In this document: positions 361 through 48,227 of the stretch, one piece after another
Numbering within the stretch: the first letter of the stretch is position 1
How the letters are laid out: the number at the start of each line of letters is the position of its first letter
Source of the DNA: a virus
IMG/VR virus record: IMGVR_UViG_3300035670_000034
Span: 72,199 to 136,198 of that record
Reading direction: 5' to 3' (one strand)
Length of the DNA: 64,000 nucleotides
The notes under the pieces: model-generated
Database searches by the model: none
The model's input: the letters and a program-made list of their open reading frames with translations, nothing else
What the model was told of the DNA's origin: nothing
Program-made: the position numbers and the translations under genes

Positions 361-969
361 ATGAGCAAGCGCAAAGAGTTCACCGAAGAGCAAAAGCAGG
401 AGATAATCCGATATCGGAGGGAAGGAAAATCATGCGAACTTATCGCCTTCTTTTTGCATTGCGGAAAAGAACGGGTTCGTAGATTCTGCAAGGAAAACGA
501 CATTCCAGTCGGCCAACCATCACGACAAAATAGTCATTATCCATCAAAATCCGTAGCAGAAGCGCAGATAATCTACACGCCATATCCGGATTTCTCGCTT
601 GCCGCATGTCGAGGAGAAAGTATTCAAACGTTTTTTCCATCTGCGCGAATGGCAAATGGGAATAAATCGGAAAAATTAAATTACTCGAGAGTTGTTATTA
701 GGGCAAAAAAATTTTGTTCAGATTGTCCAGTGCAAGAAAAATGTCTTGATTATGCACTGCTTGCAGAGCCACATGGGATATGGGGTGGGACAACCGAAGA
801 GGAGCGCGAATACCTTCGTTTAAAACTAAACATTAAATGCGAACGTGATTCTGGCCTTTCTACACGAATGGTTCGTCGCCATCTGGGCACGCATACATTC
901 AAAATGAACAATTTGACCAAGTATGACTTGAATCCGATTGTTTCTTCGAGGCTTTCAACACGTGTCTAG
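361..969 (+). CDS. whiB: WhiB-family Fe-S transcription factor with N-terminal HTH
   Basis: AACRG...FFP...AKKFCSDCPVQEKCLDYAL...HGIWGGTTEEER (four Cys plus the G(I/V)WGG motif); N-terminal GKSCELIAFFLHCGKERVRR resembles an HTH. Confidence 0.9.
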   Translation: MSKRKEFTEEQKQEIIRYRREGKSCELIAFFLHCGKERVRRFCKENDIPVGQPSRQNSHYPSKSVAEAQIIYTPYPDFSLAACRGESIQTFFPSARMANGNKSEKLNYSRVVIRAKKFCSDCPVQEKCLDYALLAEPHGIWGGTTEEEREYLRLKLNIKCERDSGLSTRMVRRHLGTHTFKMNNLTKYDLNPIVSSRLSTRV

Positions 970-21000: not shown

Positions 21001-21927
21001 TTATGCGCCCGCCATTGCCGACAGCCCCGCCCGCGACCGGCGAAGAAGGTGTGGCGCTGCGAAAGCCGTGATAGTCGCCAAGTGAAGTGGCACTATGTCC
21101 TCGTAACTGCCATAACCGCCAGCCATGACGATAACCGTACGGGCCCCGAGATTGAGGATGCGCTCTGCGACCATTGCTTCACGGCGCTCAACGACATCTG
21201 GCTCAATGAATGGGAATACATCCACACCAGCGTTGTAGAACACAATTGCGGGACCGATGGACGCAAGCCTGTTAAGCGCATCGCCAACACCGAGTAGGTA
21301 TCTGTCTGGGTCGTCACACAGAATGGCCTGGCTGTTGTAGTTGCTTTCGTAGCCGTCAAAGTCAGAGGTGGAAAGGTCTACCTGTTTGATTTCTGTACCA
21401 CCGATGTAGTCGTTGGTCCCGCCGCCGAAGTGGGCGTCAAGGTCAAGAATGGCGACTTGCTGCCCTGTAAGTTTCGCAGCGTACATAGCACCAATCGCTA
21501 GCGAGTTCACCGTACAGTAGCCACGACCCACATTCCGACGGGCGTGGTGAAGCCCACTAGAAAGTGAGCATGAATGGTCATAGCCAGCAAGAACATCATC
21601 CACAGCGCACAATACGCCTGCGGTTGAGTTCAGGACTGAGTGATACACGCCGTTATCCCAACTGAATGAGTTGCTCTCCGCCAACGCGCGGGGCCGTCCA
21701 GTCATCACTGCTTGTAAGTACTCAGCATCAACGCCGTCAGCAATAGATGACTGCGCCTTTGCCAGCGCACTAGGAATACTTGCTGGGTCTTTGACCCTCA
21801 CCCACTCGGACAAGCCAACTTCTGGCATTTGTAGCGAGCGAGCAATGTATCGGGATTTCTGGAATGTCTCAAACTGAGTGTCCGTCCCGCAATAATCTTC
21901 GTTCCAATAAACATTCATGTTAGTCAT
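21001..21927 (-). CDS. Zn-dependent histone-deacetylase-superfamily amidohydrolase (HDAC/AcuC/APAH-like)
   Basis: SGLHHA, GYCTVN, LDLDAHFGGGT, YNAGVD and AGGY catalytic motifs all intact. Confidence 0.88.
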   Translation of the reverse strand: MTNMNVYWNEDYCGTDTQFETFQKSRYIARSLQMPEVGLSEWVRVKDPASIPSALAKAQSSIADGVDAEYLQAVMTGRPRALAESNSFSWDNGVYHSVLNSTAGVLCAVDDVLAGYDHSCSLSSGLHHARRNVGRGYCTVNSLAIGAMYAAKLTGQQVAILDLDAHFGGGTNDYIGGTEIKQVDLSTSDFDGYESNYNSQAILCDDPDRYLLGVGDALNRLASIGPAIVFYNAGVDVFPFIEPDVVERREAMVAERILNLGARTVIVMAGGYGSYEDIVPLHLATITAFAAPHLLRRSRAGLSAMAGA

Positions 21928-22121: not shown

Positions 22122-22243
22122 TTTGTTCCCCCTTTCTTAGTAGGTACGCTATCACCTTACAGGCAATAATGAGATACCGCAACTAGTTCCTTACGACCAG
22201 CCACAAGAAGTAAAAGAATATAAAGGCACCGAAGCCCACAATC

Positions 22244-22429
22244 TCATGCGTCAGCATTGCCGAGGGCCCCGTCTATGCGGGGTATCCACTGTCCGCCAAC
22301 ACGATAGAAGCCCATCAGTTCGGCGTAATCAGTATCATCATGAAACACGACTTCACGGCAATAGTCGCATATCTCAGACTGAGAATATATGCGCTCAACG
22401 GGGCAGGTACAGGTATTTTTGTCTGTCAT
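22244..22429 (-). CDS. small Cys-containing hypothetical protein
   Basis: CTCP...CDYC; follows the LysM gene. Confidence 0.55.
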   Translation of the reverse strand: MTDKNTCTCPVERIYSQSEICDYCREVVFHDDTDYAELMGFYRVGGQWIPRIDGALGNADA

Positions 22430-22439
22430 ATCGCCCCGC

Positions 22440-22772
22440 TCAGCAACTTTCCCAGACTTCGCCGTTGCGCAGTTCTAGGCGACAGTCGTTACTTGTTGGT
22501 AACCAGATTTGCCAACCAGCCTGAATGGTGGTCCCGTAGGTGTTCACCAGATTATCTGTGACTGCCTGAATGTTGCCGTCGCACTTGGCTTGGGCAATAG
22601 CCCAGAGTGTGTCACCATACTGAACCGTGTGTGGCTCAGGGTCGCAAGTGAACCTATCGGCGTTGGCTGATGCCAACCCGATTACGCCCACAAGCCCGAC
22701 GCAGGCAGCAACCCACGCCAAGGCGTGACGAACCTGCCTAGTCCGATAGTTGTGAATGTTGAGTTGTTTCAT
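22440..22772 (-). CDS. LysM-domain protein with N-terminal membrane anchor/signal
   Basis: hydrophobic ALAWVAACVGLVGVIGLASANA then HTVQYGDTLWAIA...IQAGWQIWLP; leaderless start. Confidence 0.8.
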   Translation of the reverse strand: MKQLNIHNYRTRQVRHALAWVAACVGLVGVIGLASANADRFTCDPEPHTVQYGDTLWAIAQAKCDGNIQAVTDNLVNTYGTTIQAGWQIWLPTSNDCRLELRNGEVWESC

Positions 22773-22841
22773 ACTCCCACCTTACAGGCAATAATGAGAT
22801 ACGCCGACCTCACCATTTGGTGGGTCGGCGCACCTCAGCCA

Positions 22842-23012
22842 CTAGCAAGCGAGGTCGGGGTCACCCTCGCAAGGCAAGCCCTTGGCAACGCTGTTACTGT
22901 CGCAGGCACACATGACGCAAGTAGGACCGTCATTTTCTGGCAAGATATGCCAGAGGTGACTGTCGTGTATGTCGTTGTGTAGCCCAACCATGTGGTTAGT
23001 GTCGTTGTTCAT
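22842..23012 (-). CDS. 56-aa Cys/His-rich protein (not in ORF track), leaderless
   Basis: MNNDTNHMVGLHNDIHDSHLWHILPENDGPTCVMCAC...; ATG 6 nt after the 23019 promoter. Confidence 0.65.
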   Translation of the reverse strand: MNNDTNHMVGLHNDIHDSHLWHILPENDGPTCVMCACDSNSVAKGLPCEGDPDLAC

Positions 23013-23173
23013 GCGACCACCTTACAGGCAATAATGCCATAAACCTACCTACACGGGCGACCGCCCCGATGCCTCGCCCAACGAACCCAAGCAAACATAA
23101 CTAACGCGGGGCCCCCAGGGGAAAGCGCTTTTTCTATACCTTACGGTGGCGGAAAGGCTTTGTGAACGCCCCG

Positions 23174-23852: not shown

Positions 23853-24095
23853 TTACAGGCAATAATCGTCTTGTGCAACCAAGTCACTTATAGTGACGAT
23901 GCGACCACGCCACAGCGACTTCCACGGCGACCGCCCCGCTGACCGGAGGCCCTGGGCGTGTTCCCAACGACATTGTTCTTCCCAATAGCAGTCGTATTCC
24001 TCTTCAGACATTGCCTCCAAGTCGGCGTCAGTTGGGTCGTAGTAGCGGGGCCAGCGCTGCCACTTGTAAACGGGTTCAAGCAACTTCATCGTCAA
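23853..24095 (-). CDS. hypothetical protein
   Basis: ORF running through the next promoter copy. Confidence 0.4.
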   Translation of the reverse strand: MTMKLLEPVYKWQRWPRYYDPTDADLEAMSEEEYDCYWEEQCRWEHAQGLRSAGRSPWKSLWRGRIVTISDLVAQDDYCL

Positions 24096-24197
24096 TAAGC
24101 CTTTTGACTAGATAGCCAATCGCTGCACAAGACACCACGAGTATTGCGATGAACAGGTCCCATTCGCCCCAATGGGACCTCCAGTGCCCCGCCAGCA

Positions 24198-24737
24198 TTA
24201 CTGGGAGACGAACTTCTGGAAGTCAGAGATGACGTCTGCTATTGCGCCCTGAACATCATCCCCACTTTCGGTAATCTCCTCGCCAAACAACGGCAGTCCG
24301 TTGTCGCCATACTTGTAAGAGATTACGGTGTTGGTGCGCCGCCCCGAGATGTCAAACACCATTACCGAGAGAACTTCACCAACTGAAGGGTCTACTTCTT
24401 GCGTAAACGCCCTCTGTAAGTCGCCACGCCGAATCTCCTCATTTGGATTTTTGTTTTCCTTGATGTATGCCTCAACAATAATTCCCACCATTCGGGGCAC
24501 CCCATGTTCCATAAACGCTTGCTGAAGTTCATGGTGTAGTACGTCTGGGGCTGGGACTTCTTCACTTGGTGGAGTCATGGCGATAATGGTTATTGCGTCG
24601 TCAGTCTGCCAGATTAGGAATGGCGGTGCGTCCGCTGGCCCCGAGGAATCAGAACACATAATCAACTTGGCTCCCTTGGCGAAGGTTACGGCTGATTCGG
24701 CAAAACGCTTGAATTTCCGAGAGTTGCCTTTAGCCAT
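24198..24737 (-). CDS. hypothetical protein
   Basis: start at MAKGNSRK, overlapping the upstream gene end. Confidence 0.6.
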   Translation of the reverse strand: MAKGNSRKFKRFAESAVTFAKGAKLIMCSDSSGPADAPPFLIWQTDDAITIIAMTPPSEEVPAPDVLHHELQQAFMEHGVPRMVGIIVEAYIKENKNPNEEIRRGDLQRAFTQEVDPSVGEVLSVMVFDISGRRTNTVISYKYGDNGLPLFGEEITESGDDVQGAIADVISDFQKFVSQ

Positions 24738-24945
24738 TCTGCTGCGCCTTTGAGTAGCGATAGTTCTCATACAAGTCGTGAGCGTGGGCAAAGATGATTT
24801 CTTCGTACTTGTCGCTCTCATACACTTCTTCAGTATGGGGCAAGCGGGCGCTATCAACTAGTTCGTGAAGCGCCTTTTCGTACCAATACTCCACGACTTC
24901 GTCAGGTTGGTCGCACAGGGCGAACGTAATGGGGTTGTCATTCAT
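24730..24945 (-). CDS. acidic hypothetical protein, leaderless
   Basis: ATG 6 nt after the 24952 promoter. Confidence 0.7.
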   Translation of the reverse strand: MNDNPITFALCDQPDEVVEYWYEKALHELVDSARLPHTEEVYESDKYEEIIFAHAHDLYENYRYSKAQQNG

Positions 24946-25023
24946 AATCTGACCTTACAGGCAATAACTCATTATTCCAACTGTCCGGTTTATGCGGGGC
25001 CCGTCGTCGGGCCGTGTTGGCGC

Positions 25024-25302
25024 TCACACCGCCCTCAGTCGCTCGACGTACTCGCACTGGTCGTTTATGGGCGCATCAGTAAAGTCCTGAGCAGTCAGTT
25101 CTCGGTCTATGCGGCCAGTCAGGCAAGACAGGCACAGCATTCCCTCGCCAGCCCCGTGCTTGTCCCACAGTTCGTCGTGAACCATGTAATACTCGCCGTA
25201 CTCGGCGGTGTGGATACCGCAGTCGTGGCAGTCAAACGCCCCACTCCAATAGAAGTCATCATGCTCATCTAGGTAGGCATCTAGGTCAGCGTCGGTCATC
25301 AT
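25024..25302 (-). CDS. Zn-finger-like hypothetical protein
   Basis: CHDCG...YMVHDELW...GMLCLSCL...RELTAQDF. Confidence 0.65.
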   Translation of the reverse strand: MMTDADLDAYLDEHDDFYWSGAFDCHDCGIHTAEYGEYYMVHDELWDKHGAGEGMLCLSCLTGRIDRELTAQDFTDAPINDQCEYVERLRAV

Positions 25303-25439
25303 CACCCCTCTCCCTCGTGGAAAGGATACCAACCCCAACCGCCGTCGTTGCAGCAGTCGCATTCGTTGTCTGCGATTTCCCGATAGCAGGAGTCGCAGTA
25401 TCCAGGGTTGTATGGGTTGTTGCTCGGTGTGTTCTCCAT
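25302..25439 (-). CDS. 45-aa Cys-rich peptide, paralogue A (not in ORF track), leaderless
   Basis: MENTPSNNPYNPGYCDSCYREIADNECDCCNDGGWGWYPFHEGEG; ATG 6 nt after the 25446 promoter. Confidence 0.75.
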   Translation of the reverse strand: MENTPSNNPYNPGYCDSCYREIADNECDCCNDGGWGWYPFHEGEG

Positions 25440-25492
25440 GCCTACACCTTACAGGCAATAATGGTATAGTCCTACCGCACAACCGCACAAGG

Positions 25493-25523
25493 TTATCCAC
25501 AGGCTGTACACAGGTTATCCACA
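25493..25523 (+). promoter_or_regulatory. DnaA-box cluster 1
   Basis: TTATCCACA at 25493 and 25515 with degenerate CTGTACACA at 25504 (11-bp pitch). Confidence 0.65.
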
Positions 25524-25671
25524 GGCGCACCCCAGCCGCCGCCATGCGGCAGCCCCGTGGTCACGCCACGTGCGGAAACCAATAAATACAAAAAGCGGGA
25601 CAACCCCCAAAAAATGTGTTTCTCTATGTCTTACGGTGGCGGAAAGGCCTTGGGGCTAGGCCCCGTTTCGT

Positions 25672-25917
25672 CTATGAGACATAGAACCTGACGGCCTCTT
25701 TGGTGGTCAGCAGGTCTCGGTCGTAGCGGTGGTCATACCAAGCCCCGGAGAAGCGATAGAGAACGCTCGTCAGGGCCTTGTAGAGGATTTCTTCTTTCTC
25801 CTCTGGCCACTGCGTATCGTCTGCCTCGGCCCCGGCCGCCTCAAGGGTGGCCATAGCCTCGGTCAGTAGGAACTTCAGTTGTTCTACTCGTTCGGTCAGT
25901 TTCTGTGTCTCTTCCAT
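25672..25917 (-). CDS. hypothetical protein, leaderless
   Basis: ATG 6 nt after TAAGAT of the 25924 promoter. Confidence 0.7.
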   Translation of the reverse strand: MEETQKLTERVEQLKFLLTEAMATLEAAGAEADDTQWPEEKEEILYKALTSVLYRFSGAWYDHRYDRDLLTTKEAVRFYVS

Positions 25918-25990
25918 ACTGTCATCTTACAGGCAATAATGATGTACCACAACTGTAGCCTTATCCCATTATTGCCTGTAAGGTCTTGGT

Positions 25991-26128
25991 ATGACACCGA
26001 CCAACAATCCATACAACAGCGAGTATTGCGATGCCTGCGACACCTACCTCAAGGGTGACGAGTGCGCCTGCCACAATGACGGTGGCTGGGGCTGGTATCC
26101 ATTCCACAACGAAGAAACCGAGGACTAA
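25991..26128 (+). CDS. 45-aa Cys-rich peptide, paralogue B (not in ORF track), leaderless
   Basis: MTPTNNPYNSEYCDACDTYLKGDECACHNDGGWGWYPFHNEETED; ATG 6 nt after the + strand promoter at 25967-25984. Confidence 0.75.
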   Translation: MTPTNNPYNSEYCDACDTYLKGDECACHNDGGWGWYPFHNEETED

Positions 26129-26142
26129 GTTCCGGACAGGGG

Positions 26143-26255
26143 CTTGGTGAGCAGTAGTGAAAGCCCGAGGCATTGGGTGAAAGCCGACTGTCGCCTAGAT
26201 GCTCATCAGGCTGGGGGGTTGGGGCCGCATCATTGGATGCGACAACCTCAACCCC
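26143..26255. other. two adjacent stem-loops between convergent genes (terminator and/or structured RNA)
   Basis: 26143-26153 pairs with 26200-26210; 26215-26224 pairs with 26246-26255. Confidence 0.5.
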
Positions 26256-26273
26256 CACCTGCGGGACGTATCG

Positions 26274-26474
26274 CTAGAACAGTTTCTCTTGCTGTTCTCT
26301 AGTTTCTTTGGTGAAACAGAAGTCGTGGCGATAACGGTAATGCTCTTGCTCTACTGAGAACATGGTCTTGCCTTGTCTTATCCAGCAAGTGGCGAGCCGC
26401 ACGGTCGTCCCGCCCTTTGGGTCAATCTCGTACCCACACAGTTCACAAGTGTAAAGGGGTGGCACACCTACCAC
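26274..26474 (-). CDS. small Zn-finger-like protein
   Basis: CELCG...HDFC. Confidence 0.55.
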   Translation of the reverse strand: MVGVPPLYTCELCGYEIDPKGGTTVRLATCWIRQGKTMFSVEQEHYRYRHDFCFTKETREQQEKLF

Positions 26475-26695
26475 AGCAACTCAACTTTCTCCATTGTCTC
26501 ATCTGCGACTTCATCTTGATAAAACGGGTCAAACTCGCTTCCTCGTATTGAGTCGGCAACATCGGGGCGTCGCTCAGCGAGCATGTTGAAGAATACTTGA
26601 CCTGCTCGCATCGCCTTGTTGGGCGAAGTGCTTCTCAGGTGATGCTCAAAGTTGATGGCGAAGTCCAACAGGAACTGATTGAAGGAATCACTCAT
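26468..26695 (-). CDS. hypothetical protein
   Basis: MRAGQVFFNML...FDPFY; coupled ORF. Confidence 0.6.
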   Translation of the reverse strand: MSDSFNQFLLDFAINFEHHLRSTSPNKAMRAGQVFFNMLAERRPDVADSIRGSEFDPFYQDEVADETMEKVELLW

Positions 26696-26966
26696 TGAGG
26701 GCGTCTAAACGATGAAGAATGTGGGGTGTGCGCTCCCCCACCCAAGCACCTTGACAGTTGAACTCAATGTATTCAACCGCCTCGTCGTAGGACAGACCGT
26801 CCCGCGTCATCAACACGCTCACCATCTTGTCAAAGTCATAAACTGCCGTTTCTGGCTCGTTTATTCGTGTGGTGTAGCCGAGAAACGCGTCATCAAACCC
26901 ATCCATCAGAAGAAGGTTCATGTCAGCGTCTTTCAGCGCCCTGTCAATCGCGGGACGGGTCGGCAC
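26688..26966 (-). CDS. conserved phage hypothetical protein
   Basis: DGFDDAFLG...AVYDFDKMV...AVEYIEFNCQGAWVGERTP. Confidence 0.65.
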   Translation of the reverse strand: MPTRPAIDRALKDADMNLLLMDGFDDAFLGYTTRINEPETAVYDFDKMVSVLMTRDGLSYDEAVEYIEFNCQGAWVGERTPHILHRLDALNE

Positions 26967-27226
26967 TATTTCAGAACTTCTGCTGGCTTTACCGACAGCG
27001 TTTCGCACAGACGAAACAGCGTGTTGAGGTTTGGCGAGAAGTGGTTGTTCTCAATGCGGTTCACAGTCTTGCGGTCAATGCCAGACTTGTCGGCAAGTGC
27101 GTTCTGCGACATGCCCCGCTCGATACGAAGGTCTTTGAGTTTCTCGGCAACTCGTCGTTCCTTCTTTATGATTTCTGATTTCTTCATTTCTTCTCCTATG
27201 GGTGTGTGTATTGCTAGGTCAGTCAT
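26966..27226 (-). CDS. XRE/Cro-family HTH regulator
   Basis: LKDLRIERGMSQNALADKSGIDRKTVNRIENNHFSPNLNTLFRLCETL. Confidence 0.9.
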   Translation of the reverse strand: MTDLAIHTPIGEEMKKSEIIKKERRVAEKLKDLRIERGMSQNALADKSGIDRKTVNRIENNHFSPNLNTLFRLCETLSVKPAEVLK

Positions 27227-27336
27227 AGTACAGTCTCATTTCTTGCTTTGCAAGTCGTGTTATTGCTCCTTCATTATGAAGTAGTTTGCGACAACTACGA
27301 ACACGCCATAAGTGACTAGGAATACCGCAACATAGT

Positions 27337-27474
27337 TCATACGCCGTTCCACTTCCACTTGCGACAAGCCTGCTTGTCAGCCTGCTTGCGCTTGTCGGTG
27401 TGGGTCTGCGCTCTGGTGCGTGAGCCGTCAGCGAAGGCTTGACGGTCTGTCTCGTTCCACTTGCGTCGTTTCAT
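27337..27474 (-). CDS. 45-aa basic peptide (not in ORF track)
   Basis: MKRRKWNETDRQAFADGSRTRAQTHTDKRKQADKQACRKWKWNGV; GGGGG SD behind a structured leader from the 27546 promoter. Confidence 0.6.
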   Translation of the reverse strand: MKRRKWNETDRQAFADGSRTRAQTHTDKRKQADKQACRKWKWNGV

Positions 27475-27649
27475 AGAGTTCCCCCTGCCACCCCCCTATC
27501 AGGCAAGGGGGGTTGGCAGGATTAGTAGTTACGCCTGATACCTAAACCTTACAGGCAATAATGCGATAAGGCGACTTGGGCTGGGGTTGCCCCCGTGCTT
27601 GGGGCGACAGCCCCGAGGGGGCCGGCGACGGGGTTCGTGATAGGCTATT

Positions 27650-27925
27650 ATGACGATTATGAGTAATAACACCAATGACATGGATGATTTCCGGGACTGG
27701 CGCTTTGATGCGCCCAATCGCGAGCACATGCTTGAACGCAGAGTCAAGGAACTTGAAGACACTGTGTCTCGCTTGGAGAAGGAACTAAGCCGTATGAAGT
27801 CAAAAGACTTTGACGCCATTGCTTACAGAAATGAAAAGACAATTAGCGGGGCAGGCAACAAGACGATTGGTGCTTTGGCTGGCACCATTAGCATTCTTCC
27901 AGAATCACCGCACAAGGCTGACTAA
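27650..27925 (+). CDS. coiled-coil hypothetical protein
   Basis: LERRVKELEDTVSRLEKELSRM heptads. Confidence 0.5.
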   Translation: MTIMSNNTNDMDDFRDWRFDAPNREHMLERRVKELEDTVSRLEKELSRMKSKDFDAIAYRNEKTISGAGNKTIGALAGTISILPESPHKAD

Positions 27926-28113
27926 TGGCCGAAGAGAAGCCACAGCAGCCCCGCGAGACTGTCGTGCGGGTTACTTCGGATGACAAGAAGAAGCAAGTGC
28001 CTCGCTTTGTCGAGCCCCGCCCACGCGGGTCGTCTTGCTGCCCAGGCCGATAAAAGCATAGAACGGGGCCGCGCTGTGGCGGTCTGGGGGTTTCCCCCCA
28101 GACCCACGCTGCC

Positions 28114-29543: not shown

Positions 29544-29705
29544 CTAAGCCAACTCTCCGCAGTGTCGGCATACAAACTGACTGTCGTTCTCCACACAGCC
29601 GTACCAGCCGTCATAGCGTGAGTCAGTCTGGGCATGGTCATCGCAACAGTAGGTGGCGATGTCTACGGTGTCTCCGTTGGTGTCGGTGATAATGACTATG
29701 TTCAT
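29544..29705 (-). CDS. 53-aa Cys-containing protein (not in ORF track), leaderless
   Basis: MNIVIITDTNGDTVDIATYCCDDHAQ...VCRHCGELA; ATG 6 nt after the 29712 promoter. Confidence 0.7.
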   Translation of the reverse strand: MNIVIITDTNGDTVDIATYCCDDHAQTDSRYDGWYGCVENDSQFVCRHCGELA

Positions 29706-47913: not shown

Positions 47914-48227
47914 TCGCCCCACATTTGAGCCAAAGTCGGCCTTGTGGGTCTTAATCCTCTTTTTCTTTGTTCTGCTGCCAGTTGTCTTGAAGTCAGTCCT
48001 GCCCATACCCCATGCATGTCTGCGGGTGGAAATTGCAAGGCATAATCCAAGCAATACCTTTGCACCAAGCAAGCACGGCATATGGCTCTTGCCTGTGCTA
48101 TGTAGGTAATATCCTTATGTTCTTTGGGAAACATTAGTTTGGTCTTTCCCTTACAGTTAGCCATGTCCATCCACTTGTCGCCGTGTATATACGGTGCTGG
48201 AGTTACTTCTACCTTTTTCTTTGCCAT
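47910..48227 (-). CDS. whiB: WhiB-family transcription factor
   Basis: WMDMANCKG...MFP...ARAICRACLVQRYCLDYAL...GVWAGLT. Confidence 0.9.
   Translation of the reverse strand: MAKKKVEVTPAPYIHGDKWMDMANCKGKTKLMFPKEHKDITYIAQARAICRACLVQRYCLDYALQFPPADMHGVWAGLTSRQLAAEQRKRGLRPTRPTLAQMWGD

What the first reader, a model, noticed from the sequence alone, without database searches (positions are those of the whole stretch)
25302..26128. Duplicated and inverted promoter+peptide cassette
Seen: two unannotated 45-aa paralogues, MENTPSNNPYNPGYCDSC...ECDCCNDGGWGWYPFHEGEG (25302-25439, -) and MTPTNNPYNSEYCDAC...ECACHNDGGWGWYPFHNEETED (25991-26128, +). Each has its own copy of the repeated promoter 6 nt upstream. 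The + copy is the only inverted promoter in the leftward array and sits back-to-back with the 25924 promoter. Inference: direct evidence that promoter+gene units move as blocks. The conserved CxxC...CxC-NDGGWGWYPFH core suggests a metal-binding micro-protein under selection in both copies.
Basis: seen in the sequence. Interest (0 to 1): 0.7.

Follow-up and report, generated by a model that had tools for sequence, protein, structure and literature searches.

The report
Inverted duplicate microprotein cassette in phage
An uncultured freshwater phage of actinobacteria carries two old, still-selected copies of a tiny cysteine-rich protein gene, each behind its own copy of the phage's repeated promoter, and one copy is flipped; comparison with relatives shows that genes in this array are reshuffled at the repeated promoter, much as already known for T4-type phages.

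Summary
Two 45-aa ORFs (25302-25439 minus, 25991-26128 plus) are 63% identical. They are the only paralogous pair found among the array's promoter-headed genes. Each sits exactly 6 nt behind a TAAGGT hexamer of the repeated promoter (TTG/TAG-type -35, 17 bp, TAnnnT, 6 nt, ATG), a geometry that predicts leaderless mRNAs. The plus copy is the only inverted promoter inside the leftward array, and its -35 lies 3 bp from that of the neighbouring promoter.

It is not a mis-assembly, because an independent metagenome contig (L009) has the same layout. Both genes are under purifying selection (dN/dS about 0.1). Synonymous sites between the copies are saturated, so the duplication is old.

"Units move as blocks" is supported only indirectly. 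Two neighbouring cassettes are swapped between the window and L009, with junctions inside the promoter core. Relative L011 holds a different gene, inverted, in the same slot. The closest known parallel is PeSL-mediated shuffling in T4-type phages.

The peptide family is tiny. It has four invariant Cys, an invariant W-G-W, a strong net negative charge and a predicted beta-hairpin, but no Pfam, PHROG, PDB or fold match. Zinc binding and an early host-directed role are inferences. By sequence look-up, the scan has noted this pair only in this genome.

The parts
25302..25439 (-). Minus-strand paralogue, 45 aa, Cys4 acidic microprotein. Its stop codon overlaps the next gene's ATG by 1 nt.
25440..25474 (-). 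Promoter of the minus copy: -35 TAGGAC 25474-25469, 17-bp spacer holding the invariant core, -10 TAAGGT 25451-25446, 6 nt, then ATG at 25439.
25027..25302 (-). 92-aa CxxC...CxxC protein (phrog_6053, unknown function). It is translationally coupled to the minus copy and has a purine-rich SD-like run upstream.
25481..25671 (.). Conserved spacer upstream of the minus-copy promoter. It holds two TTATCCACA boxes (25493-25501, 25515-25523) and a second repeated element, TTTCCGCCACCGTAAG (25630-25645, minus strand).
25672..25917 (-). 81-aa gene of unknown function lying between the two paralogues. This slot holds unrelated genes in L010, L011 and L012.
25918..25952 (-). Promoter of the 81-aa gene: -35 TTGTGG 25952-25947, -10 TAAGAT 25929-25924, 6 nt, then ATG at 25917.
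25956..25990 (+). Inverted promoter of the plus copy: -35 TAGCCT 25956-25961, -10 TAAGGT 25979-25984, 6 nt, then ATG at 25991.
25991..26128 (+). Plus-strand paralogue, 45 aa, monocistronic.
26129..26273 (.). Convergent intergenic region with a strong G+C-rich hairpin (main stem about 26214-26256) and no T-run. Probable two-way terminator between the plus copy and the 66-aa gene.
26274..26474 (-). 66-aa CxxC protein, last gene of the XRE-regulator operon. Its 3' end faces the inverted cassette.
22154..23041 (-). Two adjacent cassettes (22154-22810 and 22778-23041) whose order is reversed in relative L009. All three junctions fall in promoter cores.

Best explanation
Shown: the two ORFs are real, protein-coding paralogues of a very small phage-specific family, kept by purifying selection in the early-gene array of a 136-kb phage. 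Two WhiB genes point to an actinobacterial host. Inferred from geometry: each copy is transcribed by host RNA polymerase from its own copy of the array's housekeeping-type promoter (-35 hexamer, 17 bp, TAnnnT, 6 nt, ATG), so transcription should start at the A of the ATG and give a leaderless mRNA. The minus copy heads a two-gene unit, translationally coupled to a 92-aa CxxC protein. The plus copy is a self-contained one-gene unit ending at a strong hairpin. Origin: the plus copy lies inverted in a slot at the 3' end of the XRE-regulator operon, and another relative holds a different inverted array gene in that slot. Gene order in the array also changes between close relatives, with breakpoints inside the invariant promoter core. 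The likeliest mechanism is therefore recombination at the repeated promoter cores, which lets each leaderless gene be cut out, re-inserted or replaced without losing expression. The first inversion cannot come from recombination between direct repeats, so it needed an illegitimate or template-switch event. The duplication, or the import of a second copy from a relative, is old: synonymous sites are saturated. Product (inferred): a zinc-stabilised mini-protein with a CxxC-x8-CxC knuckle pair followed by an aromatic W-G-W-Y-P-F beta-hairpin and an acidic tail (net charge about -8 to -9). Made early in infection, it most likely binds a host protein, either as an inhibitor or as a nucleic-acid mimic. 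The two copies have diverged in sequence and in operon context, which suggests divided or shifted roles.
For: Paralogy: (E = 6e-19); the only such pair in the genome. Coding and selection. Thirteen family members keep T-P-x-N-N, C13, D14, C16, E24, C25, C27, N29, G31, W33-G34-W35 and H39. Both types are conserved as separate 90% clusters on several contigs. Promoter geometry: (6-nt spacing in nearly all copies). The -10 reading is backed by relatives whose hexamers vary as TAnnnT without AGG: TAGAAT, TAAACT, TATACT, TACACT, TAACCT. This agrees with the TANNNT -10 and the abundant leaderless transcripts described for mycobacteria (PMC3898074). No phage sigma-70 region 2 match was found, and a T7-type RNA polymerase search found nothing but was uninformative because its control genomes were also blank. 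Two WhiB genes. Layout conserved in L009. Cassette swap with junctions in the cores. Different inverted gene in the same slot of L011, and no inverted cassette in L010. The block 25672-26273 is 90-99% identical to L009, against 78% for the adjacent 66-aa gene. Hairpin: z = -4.4. AlphaFold model: mean pLDDT 75.6, with a beta-hairpin at residues 24-29 and 32-38.
Against: There are no transcript, protein, metal or binding data. The host is uncultured and unknown at genus level. The invariant 12-nt spacer is not explained by a plain housekeeping promoter and implies an extra, unidentified factor. The promoters of the two copies are not more alike than random promoter pairs, so co-duplication of promoter and gene is not demonstrated. 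A 45-aa tree cannot say whether the second copy arose in this genome or was imported. No recombinase or annealing protein was found with the integrase, resolvase, RecT, ERF and YqaJ models. No fold or family match supports zinc binding or any target. Only four related loci could be inspected.
Confidence: 0.6

Rival explanations
1. The second copy is not an in-genome duplicate. It is a cassette imported from a related phage, so the two genes are xenologues that happen to share one genome.
For: The plus copy is 82-83% identical in protein to the single copies of L010 and L011, against 55-61% for the minus copy. In L010 and L011 the single copy occupies the position of the minus copy, behind the DnaA-box spacer. 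The block carrying the plus copy is 90-99% identical to L009, while the flanking 66-aa gene is 78%, a mosaic pattern.
Against: pS values rest on only about 24 synonymous sites and conflict. The plus copy is closer to L010 (0.49 against 0.71), while the minus copy is closer to L011 (0.48 against 0.76). The tree is unresolved. Faster change of one copy after an in-genome duplication fits equally well.
Confidence: 0.35
2. The repeated motif is mainly the binding site of a phage regulator, with an operator- or stoperator-like role. The two cassettes are then co-regulated targets rather than simple constitutive promoters.
For: The 12-nt spacer is nearly invariant within a genome but differs between lineages: CATTATTGCCTG here, CATTATGACCGC in L010, CATTAGTGCCG in L012. 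A polymerase alone does not need this. An XRE-family regulator is encoded just upstream.
Against: This is compatible with promoter function rather than an alternative to it. No binding protein has been identified and no dyad symmetry is seen in the core. The -35 and -10 elements and their spacing are those of a working promoter.
Confidence: 0.3
3. The motif is a translation signal, either a start-associated sequence as in Cluster K mycobacteriophages or a Shine-Dalgarno element (AAGG), and not a promoter.
For: AAGG lies 7 nt before the ATG, which is a workable Shine-Dalgarno distance.
Against: Within the window some copies read TAAGAT or TAAGTT. Relatives use TAGAAT, TAAACT, TATACT, TACACT and TAACCT at the same place, which keeps TAnnnT and destroys AGG. 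A TTG-type hexamer sits exactly 17 bp upstream in 24 of 35 copies. The internal, coupled 92-aa gene has its own purine-rich run instead.
Confidence: 0.07
4. One or both ORFs are non-coding chance frames, or the inversion is an assembly artefact.
For: The ORFs are very short and have no database family.
Against: dN/dS is about 0.1 in three comparisons. Cys and Trp are invariant in 13 sequences. The same layout occurs in an independent sample.
Confidence: 0.03

Closest known systems
PeSL (promoter-early stem-loop) mobile regulatory cassettes of T4-type phages (Arbiol et al. 2010, PMC2839356; Comeau et al. 2014, PMC4122927)
   Same: Many copies of one strong early promoter flank small genes of unknown function in a plastic early region. 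Differences between close relatives have their junctions at the repeats, and the repeat supplies expression to whatever gene lands behind it.
   Different: The host is an actinobacterium and the mRNAs are predicted to be leaderless. The repeat is a bare promoter, about 38 bp with a 16-nt invariant core, without a fixed linked stem-loop. Here we see a swap of neighbours and an inverted cassette, not only insertions and deletions. Mini-circles were not and could not be looked for.
Leaderless TANNNT promoters of actinobacteria (Cortes et al. 2013, PMC3898074)
   Same: A TAnnnT -10 hexamer sits 6 nt before an ATG or GTG, with no Shine-Dalgarno element.
   Different: Here a clear -35 hexamer and an invariant spacer accompany the -10, and one sequence is repeated about 35 times in 23 kb.
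Stoperators of Cluster A mycobacteriophages and start-associated sequences of Cluster K
   Same: A short asymmetric motif is repeated dozens of times in one orientation relative to transcription, close to gene starts.
   Different: Stoperators lie in transcribed DNA and block elongation when bound by the repressor. Start-associated sequences contain the ribosome-binding site. The motif here has promoter geometry and lacks a conserved ribosome-binding core.
Small zinc-ribbon or zinc-knuckle proteins (Pfam zinc_ribbon_2 and related)
   Same: The N-P-x-N-x-E-Y-C-D-x-C stretch resembles the second knuckle of common zinc ribbons. A weak profile hit (P0014, E = 1.4e-4) is to that motif.
   Different: The second ligand pair is CxC rather than CxxC. 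No Pfam zinc family scores below E = 0.1, and no structural match was found.
DUF6600 (PF20245) of FecR-domain proteins, mostly from Acidobacteriota
   Same: The heptapeptide W-G-W-Y-P-F-H is the conserved core of this domain in most of the 90 bacterial genome stretches matched, chiefly Acidobacteriota.
   Different: Only seven residues are shared. The peptide does not score against PF20245, and the domain's function is unknown.

Membership tests
PeSL-type mobile regulatory cassettes | Many near-identical copies of a sigma-70-like early promoter in a region of small ORFan genes | tested here: met
   36 hits against 0.5 expected. About 34 small genes are headed by the promoter, and of the ten genes around the peptide pair that were scanned most have no named family. 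Promoter activity itself was not tested.
PeSL-type mobile regulatory cassettes | A stem-loop terminator physically linked to each promoter copy | tested here: not met
   The alignment of all copies shows no conserved stem-loop next to the core. A separate element, TTTCCRCCACCGTAAG, occurs in only 11 spacers. The plus cassette has its own hairpin.
PeSL-type mobile regulatory cassettes | Rearrangements between close relatives with junctions at the repeats | tested here: met
   Window segments 22154-22810 and 22778-23041 are in opposite order in L009, and all three junctions fall in the cores.
PeSL-type mobile regulatory cassettes | Excised mini-circles | not testable with these tools
   This needs PCR or long reads on phage DNA.
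Actinobacterial leaderless promoter | TANNNT -10 hexamer 6-7 nt before an ATG or GTG, with no Shine-Dalgarno element | tested here: met
   The spacing is 6 nt in almost all copies, and the hexamer varies as TAnnnT in relatives.
Actinobacterial leaderless promoter | Transcript 5' end at the start codon | not testable with these tools
   No transcript data are available.
Cluster K start-associated sequence | The motif contains the ribosome-binding core just upstream of the start codon | tested here: not met
   The AGG is lost in many copies and in relatives, while TAnnnT is kept.
Integron-like cassette array | A site-specific recombinase encoded with the array | tested here: not met
   No match to Phage_integrase or Resolvase in the 136-kb record. 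The record is estimated 91% complete.
Zinc ribbon (Pfam families) | A score above the family threshold, or two CxxC knuckles | tested here: not met
   The best Pfam hit is zf-U1, E = 0.15, at 12.3 bits against a 22-bit cut-off. The second ligand pair is CxC.
DUF6600 (PF20245) | A score above the family threshold | tested here: not met
   No hit at E of 1 or below for either peptide. An acidobacterial protein scores 74.9 bits.

The most novel reading that the evidence does not exclude
The invariant promoter core doubles as a dedicated exchange site. Because every early gene is a self-sufficient leaderless module, it could be excised, re-inserted, swapped or flipped at any other core without losing expression. 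That would make the array a promoter-based counterpart of an integron, driven by an unidentified phage protein that binds the conserved spacer. The two peptide genes, with their inverted cores, would then bound a segment (25464-25966) that can invert while leaving all three genes expressed. The peptide itself would be a new zinc-stabilised, strongly acidic inhibitor of a host defence or DNA-binding protein.
Probability: 0.12. Interest if true: 0.75.

Novelty: new variant of a known kind. Interest (0 to 1): 0.45.

Why it matters
If the reading holds, this phage group shows in actinobacterial viruses the same evolutionary device described for T4-type phages: a repeated promoter that serves as portable homology for shuffling small early genes. 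Here it takes a leaner form, in which leaderless genes need nothing but the promoter. That makes the array a natural test bed for how phages gain, lose and re-orient host-takeover genes. The peptide is a compact, strongly selected early protein with no known relatives. It is a reasonable candidate for a new inhibitor of a host function in freshwater actinobacteria, which are abundant but hard to study. In isolation the duplicated cassette is a modest finding; the promoter array as a whole is the more notable feature.

Tried and rejected
**Searches for relatives of the peptide**
- Phage GenBank collection, by DNA and by protein: no match.
- IMG/VR scans with the peptide alignment and with a degenerate G-G-W-G-W-Y-P-F-H pattern: nothing beyond the window's own record, which is withheld.
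- Word-index protein search: found only the query's own cluster.
- Full profile search of 1.84 billion representatives: three more small relatives and one weak zinc-ribbon-motif hit.
- ESM Atlas: unnamed viral clusters only.
- Pfam and PHROGs on both peptides, and a PDB profile search with the family alignment: nothing.
- Foldseek and VIA-align against the PDB on the AlphaFold model: nothing usable.
- Genome-collection scan for W-G-W-Y-P-F-H: 90 bacterial stretches, most of them large DUF6600/FecR proteins of Acidobacteriota. This is a seven-residue resemblance only.

**Other tests that gave nothing firm**
- Rfam on 24000-28000: nothing.
- The family tree of the peptides is unresolved apart from the minus-type clade.
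- Promoter-pair similarity gave no sign that the two promoters are copies of each other.
- Searches of the phage genome for sigma-70 region 2, integrase, resolvase, RecT, ERF and YqaJ: all negative. The T7-type polymerase search also found nothing, but its control genomes were blank too, so it shows nothing either way.

**Tool problems**
The roughly 30 contigs that carry cluster members P0001-P0013 could therefore not be fetched to tabulate position and orientation.

**Rejected readings**
- Assembly artefact.
- Chance ORFs.
- A Shine-Dalgarno or start-associated-sequence role for the motif.
- An N4-like hairpin promoter read by the 3355-aa protein. The motif shows no hairpin, and that protein has no polymerase family match.

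Full report
**What is there.** The window is the right-hand 64 kb of a 136,198-bp IMG/VR virus record, linear and estimated 91% complete. ORFs of 45 aa lie at 25302-25439 (minus) and 25991-26128 (plus). They align without gaps over 41 residues at 63% identity, E = 6e-19. I compared all promoter-headed genes with every ORF of 35 aa or more in the whole genome. This was the only paralogous pair, and there is no third copy.

**The repeated motif.** The core CATTATTGCCTGTAAG has 36 hits at up to 3 mismatches against 0.5 expected, all between 18840 and 41992. Aligned with flanks, the full unit is as follows:
- a TTG-type hexamer (24 of 35 copies; TAG in 6, TCG in 3);
- exactly 17 bp that include the invariant 12-mer CATTATTGCCTG;
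- TAAGGT (sometimes TAAGAT or TAAGTT);
- six bases, then ATG or GTG.

This is the geometry of a housekeeping promoter whose transcript begins at the start codon. An alternative is that AAGG acts as a ribosome-binding site. That is excluded by relatives that carry TAGAAT, TAAACT, TATACT, TACACT or TAACCT at the same place. It also fits what is established for actinobacteria: a TANNNT -10 and a large leaderless transcriptome (PMC3898074). The phage encodes two WhiB-family proteins, a family that rang only in Corynebacterium among the control genomes, so an actinobacterial host is well supported. No sigma-70 region 2 was found; the T7-type polymerase search also found nothing, but its control genomes were blank too, so it shows nothing either way.

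**The two cassettes.**
- *Minus copy.* Its promoter has -35 TAGGAC at 25474-25469 and -10 at 25451-25446. Its stop codon shares one base with the ATG of a 92-aa CxxC...CxxC protein (25027-25302; phrog_6053, unknown function). That gene is preceded by a purine-rich run, so the minus copy heads a coupled two-gene unit.
- *Plus copy.* Its promoter has -35 TAGCCT at 25956-25961 and -10 at 25979-25984. It is monocistronic and is followed by a 145-nt convergent spacer that folds strongly (z = -4.4). The main G+C-rich hairpin lies at about 26214-26256 and has no T-run.
- *Back-to-back arrangement.* The plus promoter's -35 hexamer is 3 bp from that of the minus-strand promoter of the 81-aa gene (25947-25952). 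The two start codons are 74 bp apart. The other plus-strand copies (41504, 41977) lie at the array's right edge, where rightward genes start. The 3-mismatch hit at 21703 is inside an ORF and probably chance. So 25967 is the only inverted promoter inside the leftward array.

**Not an artefact, and coding.** A metagenome contig from another sample, L009, has the same order and orientation, including both paralogues and both back-to-back promoters, at about 82% overall identity. By the Nei-Gojobori method:
- the paralogues give pN 0.21 and pS 0.74 (saturated), so dN/dS is about 0.08;
- the plus copy, window against L009, gives dN/dS 0.14;
- the minus copy, window against L009, gives dN/dS 0.10.

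Both types exist as separate 90% clusters on several contigs. Both genes are therefore translated and constrained, and the duplication is old.

**Do promoter and gene move as a block?** For this pair the sequence cannot show it. The flanks no longer align. In their variable positions the two promoters are no more alike than random pairs (rank 137 of 595). They do share the minority TAG-type -35, which would happen by chance about 3% of the time.

Mobility of cassettes is nevertheless shown by three other comparisons.
1. *A swap between the window and L009.* Window segments 22154-22810 and 22778-23041 occur in the opposite order in L009. Reading the promoter flanks, each -35 half stays with the 3' flank of the gene upstream of it. 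The six-base stretch and the gene downstream change partner. The crossovers were therefore inside the invariant core.
2. *The slot in other relatives.* In L011 the slot just after the 66-aa gene holds a different gene in inverted orientation, again with back-to-back promoters. That gene is the homologue of window 29544-29705. L010 has no inverted cassette there.
3. *A mosaic block.* The block 25672-26273 (81-aa gene, both promoters, plus copy, hairpin) is 90-99% identical to L009, against 78% for the adjacent 66-aa gene.

The closest described mechanism is PeSL-mediated shuffling in T4-type phages. There, recombination between repeated early promoter and stem-loop units deletes, inserts and replaces small genes (PMC2839356; PMC4122927). 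Recombination between direct repeats cannot invert a cassette, so the first inversion needed some other event. Once an inverted core exists, recombination between it and any minus-strand core would flip the intervening DNA, and every gene would keep a hybrid promoter. That last point is inference. No integrase, resolvase, RecT, ERF or YqaJ protein was detected.

**Origin of the second copy.** In L010 and L011 a single copy sits in line with the array, behind the same conserved spacer that precedes the window's minus copy: the second repeated element, then two DnaA-type boxes, then the promoter. Its protein, however, is closer to the window's plus copy (82-83% against 55-61%). Synonymous divergences are noisy, resting on about 24 sites, and they conflict. 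The tree resolves only the minus-type clade, which sits on a long stem. Two scenarios remain open:
- the copy left at the ancestral position evolved faster after an in-genome inverted duplication;
- a second copy was imported from a relative.

**The protein.** A profile search of 1.84 billion representatives found only three more small relatives. Thirteen members keep T-P-x-N-N near the N-terminus, C13, D14, C16, E24, C25, C27, N29, G31, W33-G34-W35 and H39. Counting residues, net charge is about -8 to -9. AlphaFold with this small alignment gives a mean pLDDT of 75.6 and a beta-hairpin over residues 24-29 and 32-38. No Pfam, PHROG, PDB-sequence, Foldseek or VIA-align match was obtained.

Two short resemblances are leads only:
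- the N-terminal knuckle looks like the second knuckle of common zinc ribbons (P0014);
- W-G-W-Y-P-F-H is the core of DUF6600 in large FecR-domain proteins, mostly of Acidobacteriota.

My best guess is a zinc-stabilised, acidic mini-protein made early in infection that binds a host protein through its aromatic hairpin. This is inference.

**Limits.** There are no expression or biochemical data, and the host genus is unknown.

**Earlier notes.** Earlier notes of this scan on the same genome describe the promoter array and the DnaA boxes. My own tests agree with them. By sequence, the peptide pair has been noted only in this genome.

Noticed in passing
window 23140-46353 (11 sites, e.g. 25630-25645); also L012 628, 2849, 5133, 8156; L010 about 1050-1075; L011 about 1160-1190: A second repeated element, TTTCCRCCACCGTAAG, usually followed by ATAGAGA. 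It has 11 copies against 0.03 expected, all on the minus strand, including three beyond the leftward array. It sits in longer spacers 100-200 nt upstream of a promoter and is conserved across lineages whose promoter spacer differs. Its function is unknown.
   Followed up: partly
window 25493-25501, 25515-25523, 31249, 34359/34371 (inverted pair), 14826, 41695: There are seven perfect TTATCCACA (DnaA-box consensus) sites against 0.38 expected. The pair just upstream of the minus-copy promoter is kept, as TGTGGATAA pairs, in L010 and L011. In L012 the same place holds a different 29-nt tandem repeat.
   Followed up: partly
window 22154-23041 against L009 511-1404: Two adjacent early cassettes are in swapped order between two phages that are 80-89% identical here. 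All junctions fall inside the promoter core.
   Followed up: yes
window promoters; L010, L011, L012: The promoter spacer is nearly invariant within a genome but lineage-specific: CATTATTGCCTG in the window and L009, CATTATGACCGC in L010, CATTATGACCAA in L011, CATTAGTGCCG in L012. This points to concerted change with an unidentified binding factor.
   Followed up: partly
window 26969-27226 (-): An 86-aa XRE-family helix-turn-helix regulator heads the operon (with the 106-, 75- and 66-aa genes) that ends at the convergent hairpin next to the inverted cassette. It is conserved in L012 and is a candidate binder of the promoter spacer.
   Followed up: no
window 601-813 (+) and 47982-48173 (-): Two WhiB-family genes are present (E = 1e-17 and 7e-14), which supports an actinobacterial host.
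   Followed up: partly
L011 1309-1470; protein P0002: The public 53-aa form of the peptide starts at an ATG inside the promoter spacer (the ATGACC of the L011-type motif). This looks like a gene-caller artefact. The conserved start is eight codons downstream.
   Followed up: partly
L025-L104 (genome contigs): The heptapeptide W-G-W-Y-P-F-H is the conserved core of DUF6600 (PF20245) in 600-1000-aa FecR-domain proteins, mostly of Acidobacteriota.
   Followed up: partly
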